A stretch of 64,000 nt of DNA from Candidatus Campbellbacteria bacterium (GTDB lineage Bacteria > Patescibacteriota > Minisyncoccia > Phycocordibacterales > GCA-2747955): NCBI GenBank assembly GCA_002747955.1, contig PDQZ01000008.1, forward strand, positions 5,983 through 69,982, given 5' to 3'. A model generated the notes under the pieces. It was not told where the DNA came from. It saw only the letters and a list, made by a program, of their open reading frames with translations, and ran no database searches. Below are positions 6,186 to 58,337 of the stretch, in pieces. Each line of letters starts with the position of its first letter. Position 1 is the first letter of the stretch. Both the position numbers and the translations under genes were made by a program.

Positions 6186-6271
6186 AATTTAATAATATAT
6201 TTTTTTCAAAGAATTTGCAAATATTCGTGAGGCAAGGCCTCACGGAAGACCTCACGGAAATTGGAAGCGGG

Positions 6272-6313
6272 CCCGAAAATTTGGGTGCGTGGTTGTGCTG
6301 CCAAATTTTCGGG
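6272..6313. repeat. hairpin family C copy (stem CCCGAAAATTTGG, loop containing GTGGTTGTG = reverse of CACAACCAC)
   Basis: perfect 13-bp stem, conserved loop motif shared with 5 other hairpins; lies in leuS -35 region. Confidence 0.5.
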
Positions 6314-6337
6314 TTTTTTTAGAAAATATGATAAAAT

Positions 6338-10775: not shown

Positions 10776-11699
10776 ATGAGAAGTTTAAAAAATTTTTTAA
10801 CTTTATCTTTTTTGGCGGTCACCGCTTTTGGTTTAACCGGATGTGGAAAGGTGGTCGAAATACCACCAGCTCATGTTGGTAAATTATCAACACCAAACGG
10901 ATTACAAGAGGGAGTTATTCCTCCTAGTAAAATTAGGTTGAGTAATCTTTGCATAACTTGCGACAGCATTATTTTAGCTGAAGCATCCGACTATCCTATT
11001 TCCGATAGTTTAAAAATATATATGCCAAAAGATGAACTAAACCTAGATGTCGATGTAAGGGGAACCGTTACAATTTCAGCAGAAAAAAGTAACATTGACC
11101 AGGTTTTTGATCGCGTTACAGCTCAGCCAACTCAATCAGAAAGAGTAAATATAATACCGCTTTCTAGTGTGTATAAAATTTACGCAGAGCCTGTAATTAG
11201 AGAAGTTGTTCGCTCTTCTTTGACCAGGTATACAATTTCCCAGGTTATGGGGGATCGTGCTAAGGTTTCTGATGAGTTGATGAAAGAAATCAGAAGAAAA
11301 CTTTCATCAACACCCATAACTGTGAAACAGCTGGGGCTTGCTGATGTGCAACCACCCGAGGTCATTATTAAAGCCCGTGAGGCTGCCAAAGAGCGTGAAA
11401 TTGCAATTCAAAGAGCTGAAGCCGATAAGCAGGTTAAATTGAAGGAAGCTGAAGCTGCACTTGAAGTTGCTAAAAAGCAGCAGCAAGTGGACTTGAAAGA
11501 AGCCGAAACACAAGTTCTTGTCAATAAGAAGTTGGCGGAAGGCGTGAATCAAGCTTTTGTAACTCAGCGCTGGTTAAAAGTAATGGATCAGATGTCTCAA
11601 AATACAGAGGGTAAGGTGATCATTTTACCTTTTGAGGCCATCAAGAATCCAGCAATTTTAACTGGTGTTTCCAACAAGGCTTTGAAGGGGGTAAAATAA
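10776..11699 (+). CDS. SPFH/band-7 (stomatin/HflC-like) lipoprotein
   Basis: lipobox LTGCG after signal peptide; SPFH core and alanine/glutamate-rich coiled-coil AEADKQVKLKEAEAALEVAKKQQQ; AGGAG Shine-Dalgarno 8 nt upstream (rare in this window); GC-richer than surroundings. Confidence 0.7.
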   Translation: MRSLKNFLTLSFLAVTAFGLTGCGKVVEIPPAHVGKLSTPNGLQEGVIPPSKIRLSNLCITCDSIILAEASDYPISDSLKIYMPKDELNLDVDVRGTVTISAEKSNIDQVFDRVTAQPTQSERVNIIPLSSVYKIYAEPVIREVVRSSLTRYTISQVMGDRAKVSDELMKEIRRKLSSTPITVKQLGLADVQPPEVIIKAREAAKEREIAIQRAEADKQVKLKEAEAALEVAKKQQQVDLKEAETQVLVNKKLAEGVNQAFVTQRWLKVMDQMSQNTEGKVIILPFEAIKNPAILTGVSNKALKGVK

Positions 11700-12110
11700 A
11701 TGGATAATGTGTTAGCGCTGGGGGCGTTGTTTAATCTGTTTTTGTTTTTAATTTTTTTGATTATTGTGGCTTACGCAGTTTACATTTTTAAAAAAGTTAA
11801 AATTGCTACAGAAAACAATTATGACTTAGCTTCTGCTTTTTATAAACAAAAAGTACATATTGTAGTTTTTATTATTTTGACAGCAAGCTTTGTGTCTTAC
11901 CTTTCCATTCAAACAGCTTTTCGTCCTAAAAATTCAATTTCTCAAACCAATGCTGTTTTACAGCAGAAGTTGAAGAGAATTGATAATTCTACTGTTGGAG
12001 AATTAAAACCAGCAGAGGGAGACAAGAGGGACAAACAGAATAAAGGGTATTCCCAAAGAAACACTCAAGAAAATAAAGAGGCCATAGAGGCTTTTAAAAA
12101 CCTTGAGTAA
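11700..12110 (+). CDS. small membrane protein co-transcribed with SPFH gene (possible NfeD-like partner)
   Basis: two TM helices; start overlaps SPFH stop; GGGGG 8 nt upstream. Confidence 0.45.
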   Translation: MDNVLALGALFNLFLFLIFLIIVAYAVYIFKKVKIATENNYDLASAFYKQKVHIVVFIILTASFVSYLSIQTAFRPKNSISQTNAVLQQKLKRIDNSTVGELKPAEGDKRDKQNKGYSQRNTQENKEAIEAFKNLE

Positions 12111-12129
12111 ACAACTTTTTCATTTGTCC

Positions 12130-12204
12130 AGCCCTTCTGTCAGGAGGGGCTGTTTTTTAATGTAGAAACAAAACGCAATTTTGACGAAGTCAAAATTGCG
12201 TTTT
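12130..12204 (+). terminator. two stacked terminator hairpins (CAGCCC...GGGCTG+T-run; AAACGCAATTTTGAC-GAAG-GTCAAAATTGCGTTT)
   Basis: seen in sequence. Confidence 0.5.
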
Positions 12205-12226
12205 GCTAAAAATATTTTTCACAAAC

Positions 12227-12452
12227 AAAACTTTAAAAATGAGATACCTAACGCGGAAGCAAGCAAAAAACCCCGAGCCTTATTTGATATAAGATGAGGG
12301 GATTTTGTAACAAACAGGTTTTAATTGTATTTAGTAAAATTTTAAAAATTGGATGAAGCGCGAGGCGTCGAGTAAAAAAATTTGGATACGTATGTTTTAT
12401 TACGTTGAGAAATTTTTTTATGAAGACAACGAAGCGATTCGCCATTTTTAAA
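12227..12452 (-). repeat. MITE-like repeat family A, copies A3a (half) + A3b (inverted partner of A2)
   Basis: 12336-12452 is reverse complement of 10420-10545. Confidence 0.7.
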
Positions 12453-21506: not shown

Positions 21507-21570
21507 CATTTTTCCACATCTTTAAAATAACAAGTTTGCTTTTTTTTTTCAATAATATATATCACTTTAT

Positions 21571-21684
21571 AGGGGACCAGACACAGTCTCAACCAAACAA
21601 CGACGCAAAGTGCAGAACCTTACCGCAAAACGAGACTGTGTCTAACCCCTCCCCAAACGCCCCTACTTATGTGAGGGTTTTTTA
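21571..21684 (+). ncRNA. candidate small structured RNA (GC-rich, own promoter-like AT box, own terminator), identity unknown
   Basis: AGACACAGTCTC pairs GAGACTGTGTCT across about 45 nt; ends in CCCCTAC...GAGGG + T-run; GC far above local background. Confidence 0.3.
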
Positions 21685-27770: not shown

Positions 27771-27860
27771 TGAAAGCCCGAAATTTAAGAAGGTTTTTTG
27801 GAAAAAGGTAGAAGCGAAGCTTCTACCTTTTTCCAAAAAACCTTCTTAAATTTCGGGTTT
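27771..27860. repeat. long perfect palindrome, family B (copy B3), abutting tRNA-Arg 3' end
   Basis: GAAAGCCCGAAATTTAAGAAGGTTTTTTGGAAAAAGGTAGAAGC-GAAGC-mirror. Confidence 0.65.
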
Positions 27861-27865
27861 TCTTG

Positions 27866-27937
27866 TCCTCCAACCAGGAATCGAACCTGAATCTAGCCCT
27901 TAGGAGGGGCTTGTTCTATCCATTGAACTATTAGAGG
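27866..27937 (-). tRNA. tRNA-Arg (anticodon CCT)
   Basis: manual fold: 7-bp acceptor, D-stem GTTC/GAAC, anticodon stem AGCCC/GGGCT loop CTCCTAA, T-arm CAGGTTCGATTCCTG; CCA not encoded. Confidence 0.8.
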
Positions 27938-40257: not shown

Positions 40258-40719
40258 CTAAATTTCACCATCAATCTGCTCAATTCTTCTTTGATGTCTT
40301 TGTTTATTTGAAAAAGGTTCAGAAAGCCAAATTTTTAAAATTTTACCTAAATTTATACTTTTAACAAACCTTGCTCCGATTGATAAAACATTTGCGTTGT
40401 TATGTTCTTTTGAAAGTTTTAAAATTTTTGGATTTCCTCCGTAGTAAACTGTTGCTCTGACATTTTTAAATCTATTCGCAACCATAGCTTCTCCTTGCCC
40501 TGAACCACCAAAAATAATAGCCAAATTTTCAGGATTTTCAGAAATTTTTTCTCCGGCTTTTTTGATAAACAAAGGGTAGTCATCATCAGGATTGTAAGTT
40601 TCAGCCCCTAAATCTTTCACATTGTACTCTGGATATTTTTTCTTTAAAATTTTTTTTGTTTTTTCTTTTAATTTAAACCCAGCGTGATCTGTAGCCAAAT
40701 ATATTGTTTTATTTTCCAT
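40258..40719 (-). CDS. rpiB: ribose-5-phosphate isomerase B
   Basis: IYLATDHAGFKLKEK...IIFGGSGQGEAMVANR. Confidence 0.85.
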   Translation of the reverse strand: MENKTIYLATDHAGFKLKEKTKKILKKKYPEYNVKDLGAETYNPDDDYPLFIKKAGEKISENPENLAIIFGGSGQGEAMVANRFKNVRATVYYGGNPKILKLSKEHNNANVLSIGARFVKSINLGKILKIWLSEPFSNKQRHQRRIEQIDGEI

Positions 40720-40767
40720 AGATGTATTATAGCAAAAAAATTAAAATATGTTAAAATACTTTTTAAC

Positions 40768-40856
40768 GGAGAAGTGGCTGAGTGGTCGAAAGCGCGTCCC
40801 TGCTAAGGACGTGTCCGGGTTAAACTGGACCGGAGGTTCGAATCCTCTCTTCTCCG
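40768..40856 (+). tRNA. tRNA-Ser (anticodon GCT), type II with long variable arm, discriminator G
   Basis: GGAGAAG acceptor, anticodon stem CGTCC/GGACG loop CTGCTAA, T-arm AGGTTCGAATCCT. Confidence 0.8.
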
Positions 40857-41125
40857 CCGAGCACAAAAACCCAAAGCGACAGCTTTGGGTTTTTCCGTGC
40901 TCCGGCCGGAGAAGAGAGGATTCGAAAAGAGCGCAGCCCTGTTTTTTCTCTGCGTGGCTGCGTCCGAGAAAAAACGGCAAGCGGCGGGCCCGCGAGTTCT
41001 TAACGAACGACGAACGCAGTGAGGAAGTAAAACCCAAAGCGACAGCTTTGGGTTTTTCCGTGCTCCGGCCGGAGAAGAGAGGATTCGAAAAAAGCGGACT
41101 TTTCAAAAGTCCGCTTTGGTTTTAA
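40857..41125. repeat. tRNA-Ser 3'-end-derived inverted and direct repeats (two about 75-bp copies) plus segment shared with 57960-58030
   Basis: GGAGAAGAGAGGATTCGAA (revcomp of tRNA T-arm/acceptor) at 40895 and 41059; AAAACCCAAAGCGACAGCTTTGGGTTTTT hairpin twice. Confidence 0.6.
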
Positions 41126-41128
41126 AAA

Positions 41129-41668
41129 TTATTCAGCAAGTTTCTCTCCCGCTTTCTGCAGAAGTTCACTTGCTTTTTTTAAACCCTTTTCACCAAGGTT
41201 TTTAGAAGCTTCAAGCCCCTTTTTTCCTAGGTCTTTTGCAACACCAACTCCTTTTGATGTTGCTTCTTTAGTTTTTTCAACTGCCTTTTTACTAGTTTCT
41301 TTTAGGTCGCACCAAGCAGGTGCGTTAAAAGTAACTTCATTTACTTTATCTTTAACAGTGATAAAGTAAATGATTTTTTTACTGAAACCGGCTTTCTTCC
41401 AGGTTCCAGAGAAGGCGTATTTTCCAGGTTCAATTTGTTCTTGAACTTGGAAAACATTCTCGTCTTTTCCCATCGTAAATTCGTATGGGAAATTGGGAAC
41501 ATTTTTTTTCAATTCCTTGAAATAAAATGAACCGTTTTCAAAACCCTCAATAACCATTTTACAGCCGTAAGGCTTGTAAAAGGTCACGATGGTTTTGTTG
41601 TCATCTTCAGCAAATAAAACATTGCTAAAGAAAACTAAAATTAAAAAAACAATTTTTTTCATTACCAA
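41129..41668 (-). CDS. secreted hypothetical protein with K/A/E-rich C-terminal tail
   Basis: signal peptide MVMKKIVFLILVFFSNVLFA. Confidence 0.45.
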   Translation of the reverse strand: MVMKKIVFLILVFFSNVLFAEDDNKTIVTFYKPYGCKMVIEGFENGSFYFKELKKNVPNFPYEFTMGKDENVFQVQEQIEPGKYAFSGTWKKAGFSKKIIYFITVKDKVNEVTFNAPAWCDLKETSKKAVEKTKEATSKGVGVAKDLGKKGLEASKNLGEKGLKKASELLQKAGEKLAE

Positions 41669-45481: not shown

Positions 45482-45585
45482 TGCTTGCAAGGCGATGACA
45501 TTCACCAGTTTCCACCCCATCTTCCGGTTTGGGGTTGGTGAAAAGAATCATTTTGGCCCAGACTTTAGTCTGGGTCCTTTTTTTA
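45482..45585 (+). ncRNA. candidate small RNA between promoter-like TAAAAT box and strong terminator
   Basis: about 100 nt, internal pairing CACCAGTTTCCACCCCA / TGGGGTTGGTG; GGCCCAGACTTTAGTCTGGGTCC + T7. Confidence 0.25.
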
Positions 45586-45629
45586 AATTTTGAATTTTTT
45601 AAAATTTTTGGTAAAATAAGTTCAATGCC

Positions 45630-45825
45630 AATGAAGCTTTAGCACAGTGGAGGTAAAAATTAAATATAGAAAGAAAGTGTTTGAAATTTTATATTTCAAA
45701 AAACAGGGTGGCACCGCGGTTTGGTTGCCCGAAATTTAGCAAAGCTTGATTTCGGGTCAAATAAAAAATCGTCCCTGTGAATTATTATAAACTTAATAAT
45801 TTACAGGAACGATTTTTTGTTTTCT
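45630..45825 (+). promoter_or_regulatory. T-box riboswitch leader of serS
   Basis: AACAGGGTGGCACCGCGG (45701-45718) matches T-box consensus AGGGUGGNACCGCG; CAGGG can pair CCCTG of downstream terminator hairpin (45765-45818); upstream TTGAAT-16-TAAAAT promoter at 45592-45625. Confidence 0.5.
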
Positions 45826-45852
45826 GTAAAGAAAAATAAAAGAAAAAATAAA

Positions 45853-47118
45853 ATGTTAGATATAAAATTTATAAGAGAAAATTTAGATGCTGTAAAAGCT
45901 GGTGCTAAAAAAAAGCATGTAGATATAAATTTGGACAAACTTGTAGAGCTTGATGATACAAGAAAAGATTTACAACAACAAATTGATACAAAAAAACAAC
46001 AACAAAATGAAAACTCATCAGATATTCCAAATTTAGAAGGAGACGAGAAGCAAGCAAAAATCCAAGAGCTTTCTGTTTTAAAAGCAGAAATTCAAGAATT
46101 GCAAGACAAATATAATCAAAATCAAAAAGAATGGAAAGCTTTAATGTTGCAAGTTCCGCAAATTCCAGCAGATGAAGTTCCAGAAGGAGATGATGATGCT
46201 GACAACAAAGAAATCAAAGTGTGGGGAGAAAAGCCACAATTTGATTTTGAACCAAAATCTCATATTGATCTTATGGAAGAGCTTGATATGGTAGATTTTA
46301 AAAGAGGATCAAAAATTCACGGTTTCAGAGGATACTATTTGAAAAATGATGGAGCGAAACTTTCTTGGGCTATTTGGAACTATGCAAACGAATTTTTTGG
46401 ACAAAAAGGTTTTGTACCAATGTTGCCACCTGCAATTGTGAAAGAAGAAAACTTGTATGGAACAGGGCACTTACCAAATGATGCCGAAGATGTTTATAAC
46501 ACTCAAGACAAAGACTACTTGATCGGGACAGCTGAAATCCCTGTAACAGGTTATCACTCAGGAGAAGTTTTACAAAACGGTGAACTTCCAAAAAAATACC
46601 TAGGATTTTCTCCTTGTTACAGAAGAGAAGCTGGGTCTTATGGAAAAGACACAAAAGGGCTAATTCGGGTACATGAGTTTTACAAAGTAGAACAAGTTAT
46701 TTTATGTCAGGCAAGTAAAGAAGAAACTCATAAGTTCCATGAATGGATAAACAGAAACACAGAAGAGTTTGTTGAAACTTTAGGTATTCCTTATCACACA
46801 GTTTTAAACTGTGGTGGAGATTTAGGGCAAGGACAAGTTAAAAAGTTTGATATTGAACTTTGGGTTCCAGGTGAAGAAACTTACAGAGAAATTTCATCAG
46901 CATCTTGTTTTTATGATTTTCAAGCAAGAAGATTTAATATAAGATATAAAGATCAAAATGGTGAGACAAAATTTGTTCATACATTAAACTCAACTGCTAT
47001 TCCAACTCCAAGAATTTTAGTTTCTTTGGTTGAAAACTTTCAAACAAAAGACGGGGAAATTATTATTCCAGAACCATTGAGAAAATATATGGACGGAAGA
47101 GAAAAAATTACAAAATAA
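45853..47118 (+). CDS. serS: seryl-tRNA synthetase
   Basis: MLDIKFIREN start, class II motifs FRREAGS, GGDLGQGQ; listed start 45817 lies in terminator T-run. Confidence 0.9.
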   Translation: MLDIKFIRENLDAVKAGAKKKHVDINLDKLVELDDTRKDLQQQIDTKKQQQNENSSDIPNLEGDEKQAKIQELSVLKAEIQELQDKYNQNQKEWKALMLQVPQIPADEVPEGDDDADNKEIKVWGEKPQFDFEPKSHIDLMEELDMVDFKRGSKIHGFRGYYLKNDGAKLSWAIWNYANEFFGQKGFVPMLPPAIVKEENLYGTGHLPNDAEDVYNTQDKDYLIGTAEIPVTGYHSGEVLQNGELPKKYLGFSPCYRREAGSYGKDTKGLIRVHEFYKVEQVILCQASKEETHKFHEWINRNTEEFVETLGIPYHTVLNCGGDLGQGQVKKFDIELWVPGEETYREISSASCFYDFQARRFNIRYKDQNGETKFVHTLNSTAIPTPRILVSLVENFQTKDGEIIIPEPLRKYMDGREKITK

Positions 47119-53679: not shown

Positions 53680-55170
53680 AATTATAAGAGTTTGATCCTA
53701 GCTCAGGATGAATGCTGGCTGTGTGGATAAGGCATGCAAGTCGAATGCATTTAGTTGCATGGCGGACGAGGTAGTAACACGTAGGACTACGTACCCCAAA
53801 GTCAGGGATAACCCATCGAAAGGTGGGATAATACTTGATATCTCTTCGGAGGAAAGATTTATCGCTTTGGGAACGGCCTGCGGAGTATCAGCTAGTTGGT
53901 AAGGTAATGGCTTACCAAGGCTACGACGCTTAGGGGAGGTGAGAGCCTGACCCCCACCGATGGGACTGAGACACGGCCCATACTCCTACGGGAGGCCGCA
54001 GTCGAGAATCTTCCACAATGGACGAAAGTCTGATGGAGCGACACAGCGTGATGGATGAAGTTCATAAGAATGTAAACATCTTTTATATGTGAAAAAGTTT
54101 ATTGATATTAACATATGAATAAGGGGTTGCTAACTACGTGCCAGCAGCAGCGGTAATACGTAGGCCCCGAGCATTATCCGGAATCATTGGGCGTAAAGGG
54201 TCCGTAGGCGGTTTAATTAGTCTTTCGTTAAAGCACCAGGCTCAACCTGGGACAGGCGAAGGAAACGGTTAAACTAGAATCAAAAAGAGGTGTGTGGAAC
54301 TCATAGTGTAGGGGTGAAATCCGTTGATATTATGGGGAACACCAAAAGCGAAGGCAACACACTGGTTTTGTATTGACGCTGAGGGACGAAACCCTGGGTA
54401 GCGAATGGGATTAGATACCCCAGTAGTCCAGGGCCTAAACGATGCATACTAGCTTTTTAAATTTCAATCATTTAAGAGGCGAAGCTAACGCGTTAAGTAT
54501 GCCGCCTGGGGAGTACGGTCGCAAGGCTAAAACTCAAAGGAATAGACGGGGACTCGCACAAGTAGTGGATCATGTGGCTTAATTCGTAGGTACACGAAGA
54601 ACCTTACCCAGATTAGATATTATATTCATGCTACACATTGGAGACAAATAGTAGATATTGTGGTATAACAGGTGTTGCATGGCCGTCGTCAGTTCGTGGC
54701 TTGAGCTGTTCCTTTAAGTAGGGAAACGAACGCAACCCTCATCGTTTGTTATAAGTGTCAAACGAGACTGCCTCGCCTTAAGTTTTTAAATAAAATTTTG
54801 AAGATTTAAGGCGGGGAGGAAGGTGGGGATGACGCCAGGTCAGCATGACCCTTGATGTCTGGGGCTGCACACGTGATACAATGGGCAGGACAACAAGACG
54901 CAATACGGCAACGTGGAGCAAATCTTTCAAACCTGTCCTAAGTTCGGATCGGGGGCTGAAACTCGACCCCGTGAAGTTGGAATTACTAGTAATCGCAGGT
55001 CAGCTATACTGCGGTGAATATGTTCTCGAGTCTTGTACTCACCGCCCGTCAAGTCAAGGGAGTTGGGAGTACCCAAAGTTCGTGTTTATCACGACCTAAG
55101 GTAAGCTCAGTAACAGGGACTAAGTCGTAACAAGGCACGGCTAGCGGAAGCTGGTCGTGGATTATTTCAA
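53680..55170 (+). rRNA. rrs: 16S ribosomal RNA, complete, not followed by tRNA or 23S within 500 nt
   Basis: AGAGTTTGATCCTAGCTCAG 5' end; GTGCCAGCAGCAGCGGTAATAC; GGATTAGATACCC; ...AAGTCGTAACAAGG...GGATTATTTC 3' end lacking CCTCC. Confidence 0.95.
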
Positions 55171-55344
55171 AGAAGATGGTCATAAATGACTTTATTGGTT
55201 GAAACAATTCTATAATTGTTAGACTTTCATCTGGAGTCTTTAAATCAGATGCGCTTATAGTAAGATATGCGACACTTCTAATTAGTCGGGGCACAAGAAA
55301 GATTTTTTTCTATAACCAATCACTAAATTACAATATTTTATTTC

Positions 55345-56454: not shown

Positions 56455-57025
56455 GTGAAAAACCACCAGCTTTAGCTGGTGTGTGCGTTTAAAAACGTAG
56501 TTAGTATAATTTCCGCAAGGAAAGTGTTTTAACAATTAATATAATCTAAAATGAATCAAAGACTATATCACTTAAATCATAGCACATGGATTTGTGATTA
56601 CCACATTGTTTGGTGTCCAAAATACAGAGGAAATGTGTTGGAAGACAAGTATATTAAAAATCAATTAAAAACAATGTTTAAAAATATTGTAAAGTGGAAA
56701 GGTTTAATTATTCACGCTTGGCACATTGGTGATAATCATATACATTTATACATATCAATCCCGCCAAAATATTCAACTGCATACACAATACAAATTTTGA
56801 AAGGAAAAACTTCAGCATGGATAAAAAAGAAAACAAAAAAATTTCCAAGGGGAACTTTATGGCAAAGAGGATATTTTGTATCAACAATTGGTTTAAACAA
56901 ACACCAAATTAAAAACTACATTAACGATCAATCTCACCACCAAATAGAACTGACTCAGAAAAAGTTATTCTAGCCCACAACGTGGGCAAGATAAAAGCGA
57001 CCAGCGTTTAGCTGGTCGTTTTTAC
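56455..57025 (+). mobile_element. IS200-type insertion sequence (tnpA only) with subterminal hairpins
   Basis: left hairpin CACCAGCTTTAGCTGGTG (56457-56480), right hairpin GACCAGCGTTTAGCTGGTC (57000-57021) flanking tnpA. Confidence 0.7.
56551..56973 (+). CDS. tnpA: IS200/IS605-family Y1 (HUH) transposase TnpA
   Basis: HUH motif HIGDNHIHLYISIPPKYS and catalytic Tyr region LWQRGYFVSTIG; 140 aa. Confidence 0.85.
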   Translation: MNQRLYHLNHSTWICDYHIVWCPKYRGNVLEDKYIKNQLKTMFKNIVKWKGLIIHAWHIGDNHIHLYISIPPKYSTAYTIQILKGKTSAWIKKKTKKFPRGTLWQRGYFVSTIGLNKHQIKNYINDQSHHQIELTQKKLF

Positions 57026-57794: not shown

Positions 57795-58045
57795 TTGTAA
57801 TGGGTCTTGTTTTGAAAGAGGGCTCGGCACCAGTTCTAAACTCAGACTTCGCATTCGCTCGTCTTCGTTAAGAACTCGTTGCCTCGATTTAAAGCATTTC
57901 CGAGCACTTTTTGTGGTTGTGTTTTAAAAGTGCTTGGTCGAGCCTGGAAAGAAAGAGGGCTCGGCACCAGTTCTAAGCTCACTTCCTCACTGCGTTCGTC
58001 GTTTGCTAAGAACTCGTCGCCTCGTTTTTTCGAGCCCTCTTTTTT
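57795..58045. repeat. two direct repeats resembling tRNA-Leu 3' end (AAAGAGGGCTCGGCACCAGTTCTAA...) plus segment shared with 40985-41030
   Basis: 57829-57880 vs 57955-58020; GAGGGCTCG matches tRNA-Leu T-arm region. Confidence 0.55.
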
Positions 58046-58180
58046 GTAAAAAATAATACAAAATAATTCCTGCGCACTGCTCGGAATGTATTTTGTTTAT
58101 TTTTACACAAAAAACACCTGAACTTGATTGTACTGTTACAAAACAAAAACTTAACTTCGGTTAAAAAGTTAAGTTGCTTG

Positions 58181-58262
58181 TACCCGAAAGAGGGCTCGAA
58201 CCTCCATGGATTGCTCCACTGGTTCCTAAGACCAGCGCGTCTACCAATTCCGCCATTCGGGC
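58181..58262 (-). tRNA. tRNA-Leu (anticodon TAG), type II
   Basis: acceptor GCCCGAA/TTCGGGT, D-loop AATTGGTAGA, anticodon stem CTGGT/ACCAG loop CTTAGGA, long variable arm, T-arm GAGGTTCGAGCCCTC. Confidence 0.8.
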
Positions 58263-58337
58263 AGGTTCTAGTATTTTAACAGATTTATGTATTTTTTCAA
58301 GTTTATGATATAATTATTTTCATATAATTATAACAAT

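What the first reader, a model, noticed from the sequence alone, without database searches (positions are those of the whole stretch)
40857..41125. Stack of tRNA-Ser 3'-end-derived inverted and direct repeats immediately downstream of tRNA-Ser
The segment GTGCTCCGGCCGGAGAAGAGAGGATTCGAA is the reverse complement of the tRNA T-arm and acceptor 3' half. It occurs twice (about 40889 and about 41053), each preceded by the hairpin AAAACCCAAAGCGACAGCTTTGGGTTTTT. The tRNA 3' half can therefore fold back on the downstream copy. Partial tRNA 3'-end duplications are the classic scars of tRNA-targeting integrases (att sites). Here they are inverted and duplicated, suggesting repeated integration and excision or a tRNA-derived hairpin element. 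The two overlapping ORFs listed across this region (40741-41106 minus, 40748-41125 plus) are artefacts of this GC-rich repeat.
Basis: seen in the sequence. Interest (0 to 1): 0.6.

Follow-up and report, generated by a model that had tools for sequence, protein, structure and literature searches.

The report
Broken tRNA-anchored hairpin repeat module
The inverted, duplicated copies of the tRNA-Ser 3' end are real, and they are a broken copy of an apparently undescribed family of small hairpin-armed modules that sit just behind tRNA genes in Parcubacteria, carry arms copied from the neighbouring tRNA, and are swapped like DNA cassettes between near-identical genomes.

Summary
tRNA-Ser(GCT) is followed by a terminator hairpin and a 20/20 inverted copy of its own 3' end. 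Hairpin plus inverted copy recur 163 bp downstream (68 nt, 99%).

This is not an isolated scar. A 36-nt motif between the two copies recurs at 94% behind tRNA-Leu, 17 kb away, where it is flanked by inverted and direct copies of the tRNA-Leu 3' end.

In 86 non-redundant tRNA genes from related metagenomic loci plus the window, 23 have an inverted copy of their own 3' end within 250 nt downstream. None has one upstream. The layout is: tRNA, hairpin, inverted arm, structured core, direct arm.
- The arms track the adjacent tRNA (Ser-GCT, Ser-ACT, Leu, Ile, Arg).
- In the core alignment, 22 of 32 predicted pairs show compensatory changes.
- No Rfam family, promoter or nearby integrase was found.

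Near-identical Kaiserbacteria genomes carry different inserts between the tRNA and a distal direct repeat of its 3' end. One insert includes a beta-lactamase-family gene.

Best reading (about 0.4): a decayed copy of a cassette-like recombination module with a folded hairpin site, anchored at tRNA 3' ends.

Main rival (0.25): a trailer RNA that mimics the tRNA minihelix.

The parts
40768..40858 (+). tRNA-Ser(GCT). Its promoter has the extended -10 TGTTAAAAT at about 40750-40758.
   Evidence: ARAGORN; Rfam tRNA, 60.4 bits; sequence.
40837..40856 (+). Arm 'a': T-loop, T-stem 3' strand, acceptor 3' strand and discriminator of the tRNA (TTCGAATCCTCTCTTCTCCG). This is the template of the inverted copies.
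40857..40864 (+). Trailer CCGAGCAC. It pairs with GTGCTC(C)GG on the far side of the hairpin. The same CGAGCAC trailer motif follows tRNA-Ser in L045 and flanks a hairpin in the window's Leu locus.
40865..40894 (.). Hairpin H: 13-bp stem, GACA loop, with an A-run on one side and a T-run on the other. It is the bidirectional intrinsic terminator of tRNA-Ser and the centre of the long palindrome.
40895..40926 (+). b' + a' copy 1. CCGTGCTCCGGC is the complement of the trailer. CGGAGAAGAGAGGATTCGAA is the 20/20 reverse complement of the tRNA 3' end and forms the 5' arm of the module.
40927..40992 (+). Module interior, 57-61% GC in a 30% GC genome. It contains the hairpin CCTGTTTTTTCTC...GAGAAAAAACGG and the palindrome GCGGGCCCGC. 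The GAAAAAACG segment aligns with the Leu module.
40993..41028 (+). Motif M (CGAGTTCTTAACGAACGACGAACGCAGTGAGGAAGT): the 5' strand and loop of the core hairpin. It is cut off here, so the 3' strand and the direct arm are missing.
   Evidence: 94% match to 58016-57981 (E = 2e-10). The loop motif ACGAACGNAGTGAG is also present in the L022 Ile module.
41029..41089 (+). Duplicate of H + b' + a' (copy 2). It is identical to 40866-40926.
   Evidence: The Logan contig starts at 41062.
41091..41117 (.). Hairpin T2 (AAAGCGGACTTTT-C-AAAAGTCCGCTTT): terminator of the convergent 179-aa gene at 41129-41668 (-).
58180..58262 (-). tRNA-Leu(TAG): the second tRNA in the window that carries modules of the same family.
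57951..58042 (-). Intact module Leu1. Its inverted arm AAAGAGGGCTCGAA lies at 58042-58029, the M hairpin covers 58016-57981, and the direct arm CGAGCCCTCTTTC lies at 57963-57951. Both arms match the tRNA-Leu 3' end.
   Evidence: RNA fold -38.1 kcal/mol, z = -3.75. The Logan contig L010 is identical.
57814..57950 (-). Module Leu2. Its parts are a degenerate inverted arm (57950-57938), the hairpin CCAAGCAC...GTGCTCGG (57937-57900), a diverged M hairpin, and the direct arm CGAGCCCTCTTTC (57826-57814).

Best explanation
**What it is**
The region is a decayed, partly duplicated copy of a family of small modules (about 0.1-0.2 kb, occasionally carrying a gene) anchored at the 3' end of tRNA genes in Parcubacteria, a lineage of the candidate phyla radiation.

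The intact layout is:
- the tRNA, whose 3' end is arm 'a';
- a trailer and a terminator-like hairpin;
- a', the reverse complement of a;
- a structured core;
- a second, direct copy of a;
- the original trailer and terminator.

**Proposed mechanism (inferred)**
- The unit between the two direct 'a' copies is a non-autonomous DNA cassette.
- It is inserted and exchanged by recombination at the tRNA 3' end, carried out by a recombinase encoded elsewhere.
- The inverted arm lets the element fold, probably as single-stranded DNA, into a hairpin whose stem mimics the duplex tRNA 3' end. This is how the folded attP(+) of the cholera phage CTXphi mimics dif, and how integron attC sites work.
- After insertion the tRNA stays intact and receives a new terminator.
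- The short-spacer palindrome a-H-a' is then kept perfect by intrastrand correction against the selected tRNA arm. The distal parts decay.

**This window**
In the tRNA-Ser locus the core is cut inside its hairpin loop and the direct arm is lost. The H + a' segment has been duplicated. The copy is therefore probably inert, apart from its terminator hairpins.

**Shown**
- Family membership.
- Arms that track the adjacent tRNA.
- A conserved core structure.
- Replacement and inversion at the DNA level, bounded by 'a' sites.
- Absence of a promoter and of an integrase in cis.

**Inferred**
- The recombination mechanism.
- The single-stranded folded intermediate.
- The trans-acting enzyme.
For: 1. 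**A family, not a one-off.** The 36-nt motif at 40993-41028 recurs at 94% behind tRNA-Leu. There it is flanked by a 14-nt inverted copy and two 13-nt direct copies of the tRNA-Leu 3' end.
2. **Polarity.** Of 86 non-redundant tRNA genes, 23 have an inverted copy of at least 10 nt of their own 3' end within 250 nt downstream. None of 80 has one upstream. About 0.3 would be expected by chance.
3. **Arms track the adjacent tRNA, cores are shared.** This holds for Ser-GCT, four different Ser-ACT sequences, Leu, Ile and Arg.
4. **Core distribution.** A covariance model of the core alone gave 28 hits in 283 kb searched on both strands. All are on the tRNA strand and downstream of a tRNA. There were none in the window, which carries a different core type.
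5. **Core structure.** 22 of 32 predicted pairs show compensatory changes, while the unpaired motifs TTCGAA, GTACTG, TGTAA and GAAAT are invariant.
6. **DNA-level turnover, L037 versus L052.** The flanks are 97-100% identical and the tRNA is identical. The segment between the tRNA end and the distal repeat AATCCTCTCTTCTCCGCA is 182 nt in L037 (hairpin, a', A3 core). In L052 it is 1360 nt (a PF00144 beta-lactamase-family gene, hairpin, a', A1 core).
7. **Inversion and shuffling.** In L016 versus L045 the tRNA plus module is inverted relative to flanks that are 92-96% identical. The L045 module carries Ser-ACT arms behind Ser-GCT. Its unit is 92% identical to one in the oppositely oriented Ser-ACT array of L052.
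8. **Signs of decay.** Tandem arrays and truncated or interrupted copies occur. An orthologous tRNA-Arg(CCT) carries a module in L022 but not in the window.
9. **No own promoter.** tRNA and protein genes here use TGTTAAAAT. The modules start 0-5 nt after a terminator hairpin.
10. **The inverted arm outlasts the distal arm.** It stays at 16-18 of 18 where the distal direct arm has decayed to 9 nt or less, in L020, L034, L035 and L036. This fits palindrome correction rather than selection on the module's own closing helix.
Against: - No recombinase has been identified, in cis or in trans.
- No empty site, circular junction or autonomous relative was seen.
- The window's tRNA-Ser copy has no direct repeat, so the att-like boundary is inferred from relatives only.
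- Rearrangements at repeated sequences (points 6 and 7) can also arise by ordinary homologous or illegitimate recombination.
- Invariant single-stranded motifs and compensatory changes are what a functional RNA would show. G-U pairs outnumber A-C 12 to 3 on the tRNA-sense strand.
- Nearly every tRNA examined in the two low-GC genomes carries a module (3 of 3 with enough flank in L022, 2 of 3 in the window). That could mean a housekeeping role.
- Only two gene-carrying units were seen, both in one lineage.
Confidence: 0.4

Rival explanations
1. The modules are trailer RNAs. Read-through from the tRNA promoter produces a structured RNA whose closing helix (a' paired with a) reproduces the acceptor plus T-stem 'minihelix' of the neighbouring tRNA. 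The tRNA-processing enzymes (RNase P, RNase Z, the CCA-adding enzyme, possibly the cognate synthetase) would then recognise and excise it, and the conserved core and loops would carry the function. The window's tRNA-Ser copy would be a pseudogene of such an RNA. Its inverted arm would refold and inactivate any read-through pre-tRNA.
For: - The modules are always on the tRNA strand and immediately downstream.
- 22 of 32 pairs show compensatory changes, with invariant unpaired motifs.
- G-U pairs outnumber A-C 12 to 3 on the sense strand, and the mean fold is 2 kcal/mol better on the sense strand.
- Each intact module ends like a tRNA gene: acceptor 3' strand, G, C(A/C)A, then its own terminator.
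- High GC in a 30% GC genome is typical of structured RNA.
- Modules are present at 3 of 3 tRNAs in L022 and 2 of 3 in the window.
- From my own knowledge: plant dicistronic tRNA-snoRNA genes and the E. coli 3'ETS-leuZ RNA show that trailer RNAs exist.
Against: - There is no promoter, and a good intrinsic terminator stands in front of the module.
- The consensus fold is as good on the antisense strand: -31.2 versus -29.6 kcal/mol.
- The module's own closing helix is decayed to 5-9 bp in several loci where the inverted arm still matches the tRNA perfectly.
- Different module subfamilies, copy numbers and even a protein gene occupy the same site in near-identical genomes.
- The L045 module has arms of a different tRNA.
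- Truncated and interrupted copies are common.
- No Rfam family matches.
Confidence: 0.25
2. This is the first reader's reading: the copies are scars (att sites) left by repeated integration and excision of conventional tRNA-targeting integrase elements such as prophages or genomic islands.
For: [quoted passage not shown] From my own knowledge (the Williams 2002 classification), that is the segment such integrases use.
- In relatives, direct repeats of it bound variable DNA.
- Two tandem direct copies follow tRNA-Leu.
Against: - In the tRNA-Ser locus the copies are inverted, and the window contains no direct copy of the 14-mer TCCTCTCTTCTCCG even allowing 2 mismatches.
- No integrase was found among the 20 scanned ORFs of the window. 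Reading the first residues of ORFs in about 18 related loci showed no obvious recombinase, but apart from two L052 ORFs and the precomputed Pfam labels for the genes around the L052 locus, those ORFs were not scanned against a domain library.
- The 'islands' are only 0.15-1.4 kb.
- A conserved structured core and an inverted arm are not explained.
- The sequences are absent from phage and viral collections.
Confidence: 0.1
3. There is no dedicated machinery. CPR terminators are long hairpins, and replication template-switching at them extends the palindrome into the tRNA, which creates a'. Slippage and unequal recombination then duplicate the segments. The shared 'core' is just a locally spreading repeat.
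For: - The inverted copy includes the genomic trailer rather than CCA. It was therefore copied from DNA and not from mature tRNA.
- The palindrome centre is the terminator loop.
- tRNA-Arg in the window has a 40-bp-arm palindrome with no tRNA-derived arm.
- The 68-nt duplicate is a simple direct duplication.
Against: - It does not explain why the inverted copy always ends at TTCGAA.
- It does not explain why it is always followed by a core with conserved structure and motifs across genera.
- It does not explain why the same core appears behind different tRNAs 17 kb apart, each with matching arms.
- It does not explain the distal direct arm.
Confidence: 0.13
4. It is an assembly artefact: a fold-back chimera at a palindromic k-mer.
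For: The source is a metagenome-assembled contig. The hairpin is a perfect palindrome that can reverse a de Bruijn path.
Against: - The arms differ by indels.
- The independent Logan contigs agree.
- The same design is seen in dozens of assemblies from other projects.
Confidence: 0.02

Closest known systems
Folded single-stranded attP(+) of the cholera phage CTXphi and other elements that exploit Xer recombinases (IMEX). Comparison from my own knowledge; see also PMC3442271, found.
   Same: - Two inverted copies of a target-like sequence, separated by about 90-130 nt, can fold into a hairpin that mimics the duplex chromosomal target.
- The integrated form reads: target copy, element, inverted copy, spacer, target copy.
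- No recombinase is encoded on the smallest elements.
   Different: - The target here is the 3' end of tRNA genes, not dif.
- Units are 0.15-1.4 kb with no phage genes.
- No Xer-type site or enzyme was shown.
- The single-stranded stage is purely inferred.
Integron attC sites and gene cassettes, including cassettes without an ORF. Comparison from my own knowledge; PMC4792948 appeared.
   Same: - The sites are structured imperfect palindromes whose fold is conserved through compensatory changes while the sequence varies.
- They form tandem arrays in one orientation next to a fixed anchor.
- Units occur with or without a gene.
- Different subfamilies of site sit in one array.
   Different: - No intI, attI or cassette promoter Pc was found.
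- By reading the module arms I saw no RYYYAAC/GTTRRRY core sites; no pattern search was run for them.
- The arms copy the neighbouring tRNA.
- The anchor is a tRNA gene.
att sites of tRNA-targeting tyrosine integrases, and cis-mobilisable elements (CIMEs) flanked by att sites.
   Same: - The position is the 3' end of a tRNA gene.
- The repeated segment runs from the T-loop to the discriminator.
- Direct repeats bound variable DNA in relatives.
- Accretion happens in tandem.
   Different: - There is an inverted arm and a conserved structured core.
- The units are far smaller.
- No integrase was found.
- The window's tRNA-Ser copy has only inverted copies.
REP, BIME and REPIN elements and other bacterial MITE-like palindromic repeats (PMC3733652 and PMC3184786 were listed).
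   Same: - They are short intergenic palindromic units in alternating orientation with characteristic linkers.
- They lie in terminator zones between convergent genes.
- Copies are homogeneous within a genome and families diverge between genomes.
   Different: - These modules are strictly tRNA-linked and co-oriented.
- Their arms are specific to each locus.
- There are only 2 loci in 64 kb, not a dispersed high-copy family.
- No RAYT association was found. The IS200-like gene in the window has unrelated ends.
tRNA minihelices, tRNA-like structures and tRNA-linked trailer RNAs (3'ETS-leuZ, plant tRNA-snoRNA dicistrons, permuted tmRNA).
   Same: - The closing helix equals the acceptor plus T-stem of a real tRNA.
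- The position is directly 3' of a tRNA.
- There is a weak sub-threshold hit to permuted tmRNA, caused by the order '3' half, hairpin, 5' strand'.
   Different: - The helix is a perfect reverse complement, not the tRNA's own 5' strands (AGAGG rather than GGAGG).
- It has no intact T-loop.
- It often extends into the trailer.
- No expression evidence exists.
- No Rfam membership.

Membership tests
Classical tRNA-integrase att scar (attL/attR) | A direct repeat of the tRNA 3' segment bounding foreign DNA. | tested here: not met
   At the tRNA-Ser locus both copies are inverted. The 64-kb window has no direct copy of TCCTCTCTTCTCCG with 2 or fewer mismatches. The feature is met only at tRNA-Leu (two 13-nt direct copies) and in relatives.
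Classical tRNA-integrase att scar (attL/attR) | A tyrosine or serine integrase gene next to the site or within the island. | tested here: not met
   Pfam scans of 20 window ORFs of the relevant sizes and positions, plus a re-scan of two of them at a laxer threshold, found no recombinase. The only mobile-element hit was an IS200-type Y1 transposase at 56551-56973. Not every ORF of the window was scanned. In the related loci only ORF starts were read, plus precomputed Pfam labels around the L052 locus.
Intrinsic (rho-independent) terminator | A G+C-rich stem-loop followed by a T-run directly after a gene. | tested here: met
   Hairpin 40865-40894 has a 13-bp stem followed by TTTTT and lies 8 nt after the tRNA. 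T2 at 41091-41117 follows the convergent gene. The simple scanner missed both because the stems begin with A-T runs.
Any Rfam RNA family | A score at or above the family gathering threshold. | tested here: not met
   Window at the gathering threshold: only the 16S rRNA and 3 tRNAs. Region 40600-41300 at E up to 10: only spurious hairpin (miRNA-type) and sub-threshold hits. Intact modules in 13 + 6 related loci: only tRNAs.
REP/BIME/REPIN | A high-copy dispersed palindromic unit with a conserved sequence across the genome, associated with a RAYT. | tested here: not met
   The hairpin and the arm motifs occur only at the tRNA-Ser locus, and motif M only at the two tRNA loci in 64 kb. The arms differ per locus. 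The ends of the Y1 transposase unit are unrelated. The rest of the genome was not available.
Integron attC / cassette array | R''/R' core sites (RYYYAAC...GTTRRRY), an adjacent intI and an attI. | not tested
   By reading the module arms (they end in ...TTCGAA and begin CGAA(T)...) I saw no RYYYAAC/GTTRRRY core sites, but no pattern search was run for them. No intI-like gene turned up among the window ORFs scanned. In the related loci only ORF starts were read. The resemblance is functional only: a structured palindromic site, arrays, and units without an ORF.
CTXphi-type folded attP / IMEX | Inverted target-like sites that fold into a recombinase substrate, plus a host Xer-type recombinase and a single-stranded stage. 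| tested here: inconclusive
   The inverted target-like arms and the predicted fold are present. The integrated layout matches. The enzyme and the single-stranded intermediate cannot be tested with these tools.
IS200/IS605 element or derived MITE (PATE) | Subterminal hairpins recognised by a Y1 TnpA, insertion 3' of a fixed tetra- or pentanucleotide, and no target duplication. | tested here: inconclusive
   The core is flanked on the left by TTCGAA and ends in CCGAA or CGAA(AT), which fits the rule. The units are nevertheless bounded by 13-18-nt direct repeats, and the window's IS200 has different hairpins.
TIGR (tandem interspaced guide RNA) arrays of CPR | 36-nt units or stem units with box C / box D motifs and two 8-12-nt spacers, next to a Tas (Nop-domain) gene. 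| not tested
   Compared by eye only with the description in PMC12045711. The modules are 90-190 nt, I saw no consistent RUGAUGA/CUGA pair (no pattern search was run), and no Nop-domain gene appeared among the neighbours scanned.

The most novel reading that the evidence does not exclude
Parcubacteria (and perhaps other CPR bacteria) use the 3' ends of their tRNA genes as docking sites for an integron-like cassette system. Small units, with or without a gene, each end in a hairpin-forming recombination site whose stem is a copy of the target tRNA's acceptor and T-stem. A trans-encoded recombinase inserts, stacks, swaps and inverts them, possibly acting on single-stranded DNA taken up by these naturally competent cells. 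The tRNA-Ser structure in this window would be a fossil of that system.
Probability: 0.2. Interest if true: 0.85.

Novelty: new variant of a known kind. Interest (0 to 1): 0.62.

Why it matters
CPR bacteria have tiny genomes, and little is known about their mobile DNA and small RNAs.

A module family that sits behind a large share of their tRNA genes, copies the tRNA's own 3' end into a hairpin, and differs between near-identical genomes must be one of two things. Either it is a new route of gene exchange and genome rearrangement, with tRNA genes as cassette docks and inversion breakpoints. Or it is a new class of tRNA-mimicking RNA. Either would be a concrete, testable addition to CPR biology.

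There are also practical consequences. These GC-rich palindromes generate spurious ORFs and break assemblies: the Logan contigs end in them. They should be masked or annotated in CPR genomes.

For this particular window the feature itself is a decayed copy of little functional consequence beyond transcription termination.

Tried and rejected
- **Exact 25-mer of the inverted arm (CCGGCCGGAGAAGAGAGGATTCGAA).** No hits in genome, metagenome or viral collections. The source strain is not in those collections.
- **20-mer of motif M in genome contigs.** Four hits, all in unrelated taxa (haloarchaeon, Poseidoniales, actinomycete, alphaproteobacterium). I treated them as chance.
- **Synteny route through LysRS.** The source is a Campbellbacteria contig and the nearest relative is 77% identical. 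The neighbourhood is not conserved, so this gave no orthologous spacer.
- **Exact-protein look-ups of RpiB and the 179-aa neighbour.** Neither is on record.
- **Phage database (blastn) and IMG/VR pattern scans with the module or core.** Nothing found.
- **Alignment of the low-GC module type (window plus L022).** Too many indels for a convincing consensus fold. Only the loop motif and the stems of the closest pair are shared.
- **Strand test for RNA versus DNA.** Inconclusive.
- **Link to the IS200 copy.** Rejected, because its hairpin ends are unrelated.
- **A distal direct copy at +4663 in L036.** It lies inside a coding region, so I treated it as chance.
- **Retroviral-type primer-binding site.** Rejected, because the complementarity runs into the genomic trailer instead of CCA.
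- **Decayed tRNA gene copy.** Rejected, because the 5' arm is the exact reverse complement of the 3' strand (AGAGG, not the tRNA's GGAGG) and no D or anticodon arm remains.
- **Hammerhead and other small ribozymes.** I compared CUG-stem-CGAAA by eye, from memory. The CUGAUGA box is absent and Rfam gave no hit.
- **TIGR-Tas arrays.** Set aside after reading the description in the paper.
- **Literature.** Eight searches found no description of such modules.
Full report
**1. The observation**

The window comes from a 30% GC genome. Its LysRS protein is 100% identical to one from a 152-kb contig of Candidatus Campbellbacteria.

tRNA-Ser(GCT) lies at 40768-40856/8 on the + strand. It is followed by these elements:
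- the trailer CCGAGCAC;
- a 13-bp-stem hairpin with a T-run (40865-40894);
- CCGTGCTCCGGC;
- CGGAGAAGAGAGGATTCGAA (40907-40926).

That last 20-mer is 20/20 complementary to the tRNA T-loop, T-stem 3' strand, acceptor 3' strand and discriminator.

Hairpin plus inverted copy recur at 41029-41096: 68 nt, 99% identical, E = 7.5e-32. Neither motif occurs in shuffled sequence. The stretch 40750-41100 is 51-61% GC. As single-stranded DNA, 40833-40930 folds into one long hairpin of -46 kcal/mol, z = -12.9. In a read-through RNA the same duplex replaces the tRNA acceptor and T arms.

The structure is not a fold-back artefact:
- The two arms differ by two 2-nt indels.
- An independent Logan assembly of the same run starts a contig exactly at the first 31-mer that distinguishes copy 2 from copy 1.
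- The Logan assembly reproduces the second locus described below base for base.

The two ORFs across the region have no Pfam hit and overlap a tRNA.

**2. A second locus changes the picture**

I read the flanks of the other two tRNAs. The 36 nt at 40993-41028 (motif M) recur at 94% at 58016-57981, downstream of tRNA-Leu(TAG) and in the same orientation relative to that tRNA. The similarity extends upstream through GAAAAAACG.

At the Leu locus, M is the 5' strand and loop of a hairpin (CGAGTTCTTAGC...GCTTAGAACTGG). That hairpin is enclosed by AAAGAGGGCTCGAA on one side and CGAGCCCTCTTTC on the other. These are an inverted and a direct copy of the tRNA-Leu 3' end. A second, more diverged unit follows.

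So the same core sits behind two different tRNAs, each time with arms that match that tRNA.

Measured against the Leu units, the tRNA-Ser copy is broken. M stops in its loop at 41028, and the 3' strand and the direct arm are missing. A duplicate of hairpin plus inverted arm stands in their place.

**3. Relatives**

Exact scans for the inverted arm and for M found nothing useful. Synteny around LysRS is not conserved.

A metagenome scan for the tRNA-Ser 3' 25-mer returned 44 loci. In about twenty of them the tRNA is followed by:
- a terminator-like hairpin, often extended by trailer complementarity;
- the reverse complement of the tRNA 3' end, always ending in TTCGAA;
- a structured core of 80-130 nt;
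- a direct copy of the T-stem 3' and acceptor 3' strands, plus a few trailer bases;
- a second terminator.

One to three such units occur in tandem.

Over all 86 non-redundant tRNA genes in these loci and the window, 23 have an inverted copy of at least 10 nt of their own 3' end within 250 nt downstream. None of 80 has one upstream. About 0.3 would be expected by chance.

The arms follow the adjacent tRNA:
- four different tRNA-Ser(ACT) sequences each have their own matching arms around cores nearly identical to those behind tRNA-Ser(GCT) in the same contig;
- in L022, a 25% GC contig whose tRNA-Ser differs from the window's at only a few positions, tRNA-Ile and tRNA-Arg carry modules with their own arms, and the Ile module has the same loop motif ACGAACGNAGTGAG as the window.

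One lineage is Candidatus Kaiserbacteria. Both it and the window's lineage belong to Parcubacteria.

**4. The core is structured and strictly tRNA-linked**

- Ten Kaiserbacteria-type modules align with 22 of 32 predicted pairs showing compensatory double changes. The unpaired motifs TTCGAA, GTACTG, the loop TGTAA and GAAAT are invariant.
- A covariance model of the core alone, without arms, found 28 hits in 283 kb searched on both strands. All are on the tRNA strand and downstream of a tRNA.
- No Rfam family matches the modules.
- Phage and viral collections have nothing similar.
- Eight literature searches found no description.
- TIGR arrays, the one CPR-specific tandem RNA system that surfaced, have a different unit design.

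**5. RNA gene or DNA element?**

For an RNA:
- the constant orientation;
- the compensatory changes;
- G-U pairs outnumbering A-C 12 to 3 on the sense strand;
- tRNA-like 3' ends, each with its own terminator.

Against an RNA:
- The consensus fold is equally good on the other strand.
- The modules start 0-5 nt after a good terminator and lack the TGTTAAAAT promoter used by the tRNA and protein genes here.
- In several loci the module's own closing helix has decayed to 5-9 bp while the inverted arm still matches the tRNA at 16-18 of 18.

The DNA-level evidence is more direct:
- **L037 versus L052.** The flanks are 97-100% identical and the tRNA is identical. Between the tRNA end and the distal repeat AATCCTCTCTTCTCCGCA, one has 182 nt (hairpin, inverted arm, one core type). 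The other has 1360 nt (a PF00144 beta-lactamase-family gene, another hairpin, inverted arm, another core type). That arrangement is stable across many samples of the species.
- **L016 versus L045.** The flanks are 92-96% identical, but the tRNA plus module is inverted relative to them. The module in L045 carries tRNA-Ser(ACT) arms. It is 92% identical to a unit in the oppositely oriented Ser(ACT) array of L052. This is what recombination between inverted arm sites would produce.
- **Decay and polymorphism.** Arrays contain truncated and interrupted units. An orthologous tRNA-Arg has a module in L022 but not in the window.
- **No integrase.** None was found among the window ORFs scanned. Reading ORF starts in the related loci showed no obvious one. 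The precomputed Pfam labels around the L052 locus list none.

**6. Interpretation**

I therefore rank first (about 0.4) a non-autonomous, cassette-like DNA module. It would be exchanged by recombination at the tRNA 3' end. Its inverted arm would let it fold into a hairpin that mimics the duplex target. The integrated layout (target copy, element, inverted copy, spacer, target copy) is that of CTXphi and its folded attP(+). The array behaviour resembles integron attC cassettes.

The short-spacer palindrome (tRNA arm, hairpin, inverted arm) would then be kept perfect by intrastrand correction against the selected tRNA. That explains why the inverted arm outlasts the distal one.

The enzyme, the single-stranded intermediate and any excision product are inferred, not shown.

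The rivals, in order:
- a tRNA-minihelix-mimicking trailer RNA (0.25);
- template-switch palindrome growth plus duplication with no dedicated machinery (0.13);
- an assembly artefact (0.02).

**7. Verdict on the finding**

The tRNA-Ser structure at 40857-41125 is real and non-random. It is best described as a truncated, partly duplicated member of a tRNA-anchored module family, not as a pair of att scars.

Locally it probably does nothing beyond terminating transcription from both sides. Its interest lies in the family it reveals.

That family is widespread in at least two Parcubacteria lineages. It is absent from Rfam and from the literature I could search. Depending on expression and read-level data that I could not obtain, it is either a new cassette or recombination system docked on tRNA genes, or a new class of tRNA-mimicking RNA.

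Noticed in passing
window 45620-45800: A T-box-like leader (AACAGGGTGGCACCGCGG and a downstream terminator or antiterminator) lies upstream of serS (45817-47118). Rfam did not call it at the gathering threshold.
   Followed up: no
window 45485-45575: A GC-rich segment of about 90 nt with hairpins and a T-run sits directly after a TGTTAAAAT promoter. It is a candidate small RNA with no Rfam hit.
   Followed up: no
window 21569-21683: A GC-rich long hairpin (GGGGACCAGACACAGTCTC...GAGACTGTGTCTAACCCC). Its A/G-rich loop, AACAACGACGCAAAGTGCAGAA, resembles the loop of motif M. It is not next to a tRNA and may be an orphan relative of the module core.
   Followed up: no
window 6209-6322: A GC-rich intergenic segment with repeated CCTCACGG units and a terminator-like hairpin.
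   Followed up: no
window about 27773-27860 (- strand, downstream of tRNA-Arg 27865-27937): A near-perfect palindrome with arms of about 40 bp follows tRNA-Arg(CCT), with no tRNA-derived arm. The orthologous tRNA-Arg in L022 (3925-3997) does carry a full module.
   Followed up: partly
window about 56455-57025: A compact IS200-type element: a Y1 transposase gene (56551-56973) between two hairpins (ACCAGCTTTAGCTGGT and ACCAGCGTTTAGCTGGT). It lies 0.8 kb from the tRNA-Leu modules but is unrelated to them in sequence.
   Followed up: yes
window 53680-55172: The 16S rRNA gene is followed by protein genes, with no 23S rRNA in the remaining 9 kb. The rRNA operon is therefore unlinked.
   Followed up: no
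window 40750, 45467, 57057, 58273-58300 and elsewhere: A recurrent extended -10 promoter, TGTTAAAAT, precedes tRNA and protein genes. It is a useful marker of real transcription starts in this genome.
   Followed up: partly
L015 5716-5803, L021 761-848, L035 3883-3970, L048 8771-8858, L052 8659-8746: Kaiserbacteria-like contigs carry a tRNA-Ser that ARAGORN reads with anticodon ACT, alongside tRNA-Ser(GCT). As far as I know, A34 in bacteria is otherwise confined to tRNA-Arg(ACG).
   Followed up: no
L024 module 2 (about 2342-2424, - strand) and L021 module 2 (537-700): Two independent insertions of about 72 nt sit exactly in the TGTAA loop of the module's last hairpin. They have similar ends (GCAA(A)GC...CAAG) and a duplicated (G)TA. 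On the bottom strand this reads as insertion after TTAC, the target logic of IS200/IS605.
   Followed up: partly
L016 versus L045; L052 7578-7674: The tRNA-Ser plus module segment is inverted relative to flanks that are 92-96% identical. The unit behind tRNA-Ser(GCT) in L045 is 92% identical to a unit in the Ser(ACT) array of L052. The modules therefore mark inversion breakpoints.
   Followed up: partly
L052 7716-8243 (- strand) and 11347-12369: An RNase_T-family gene and a beta-lactamase-family gene each sit inside a tRNA-linked module array, on the tRNA strand.
   Followed up: partly
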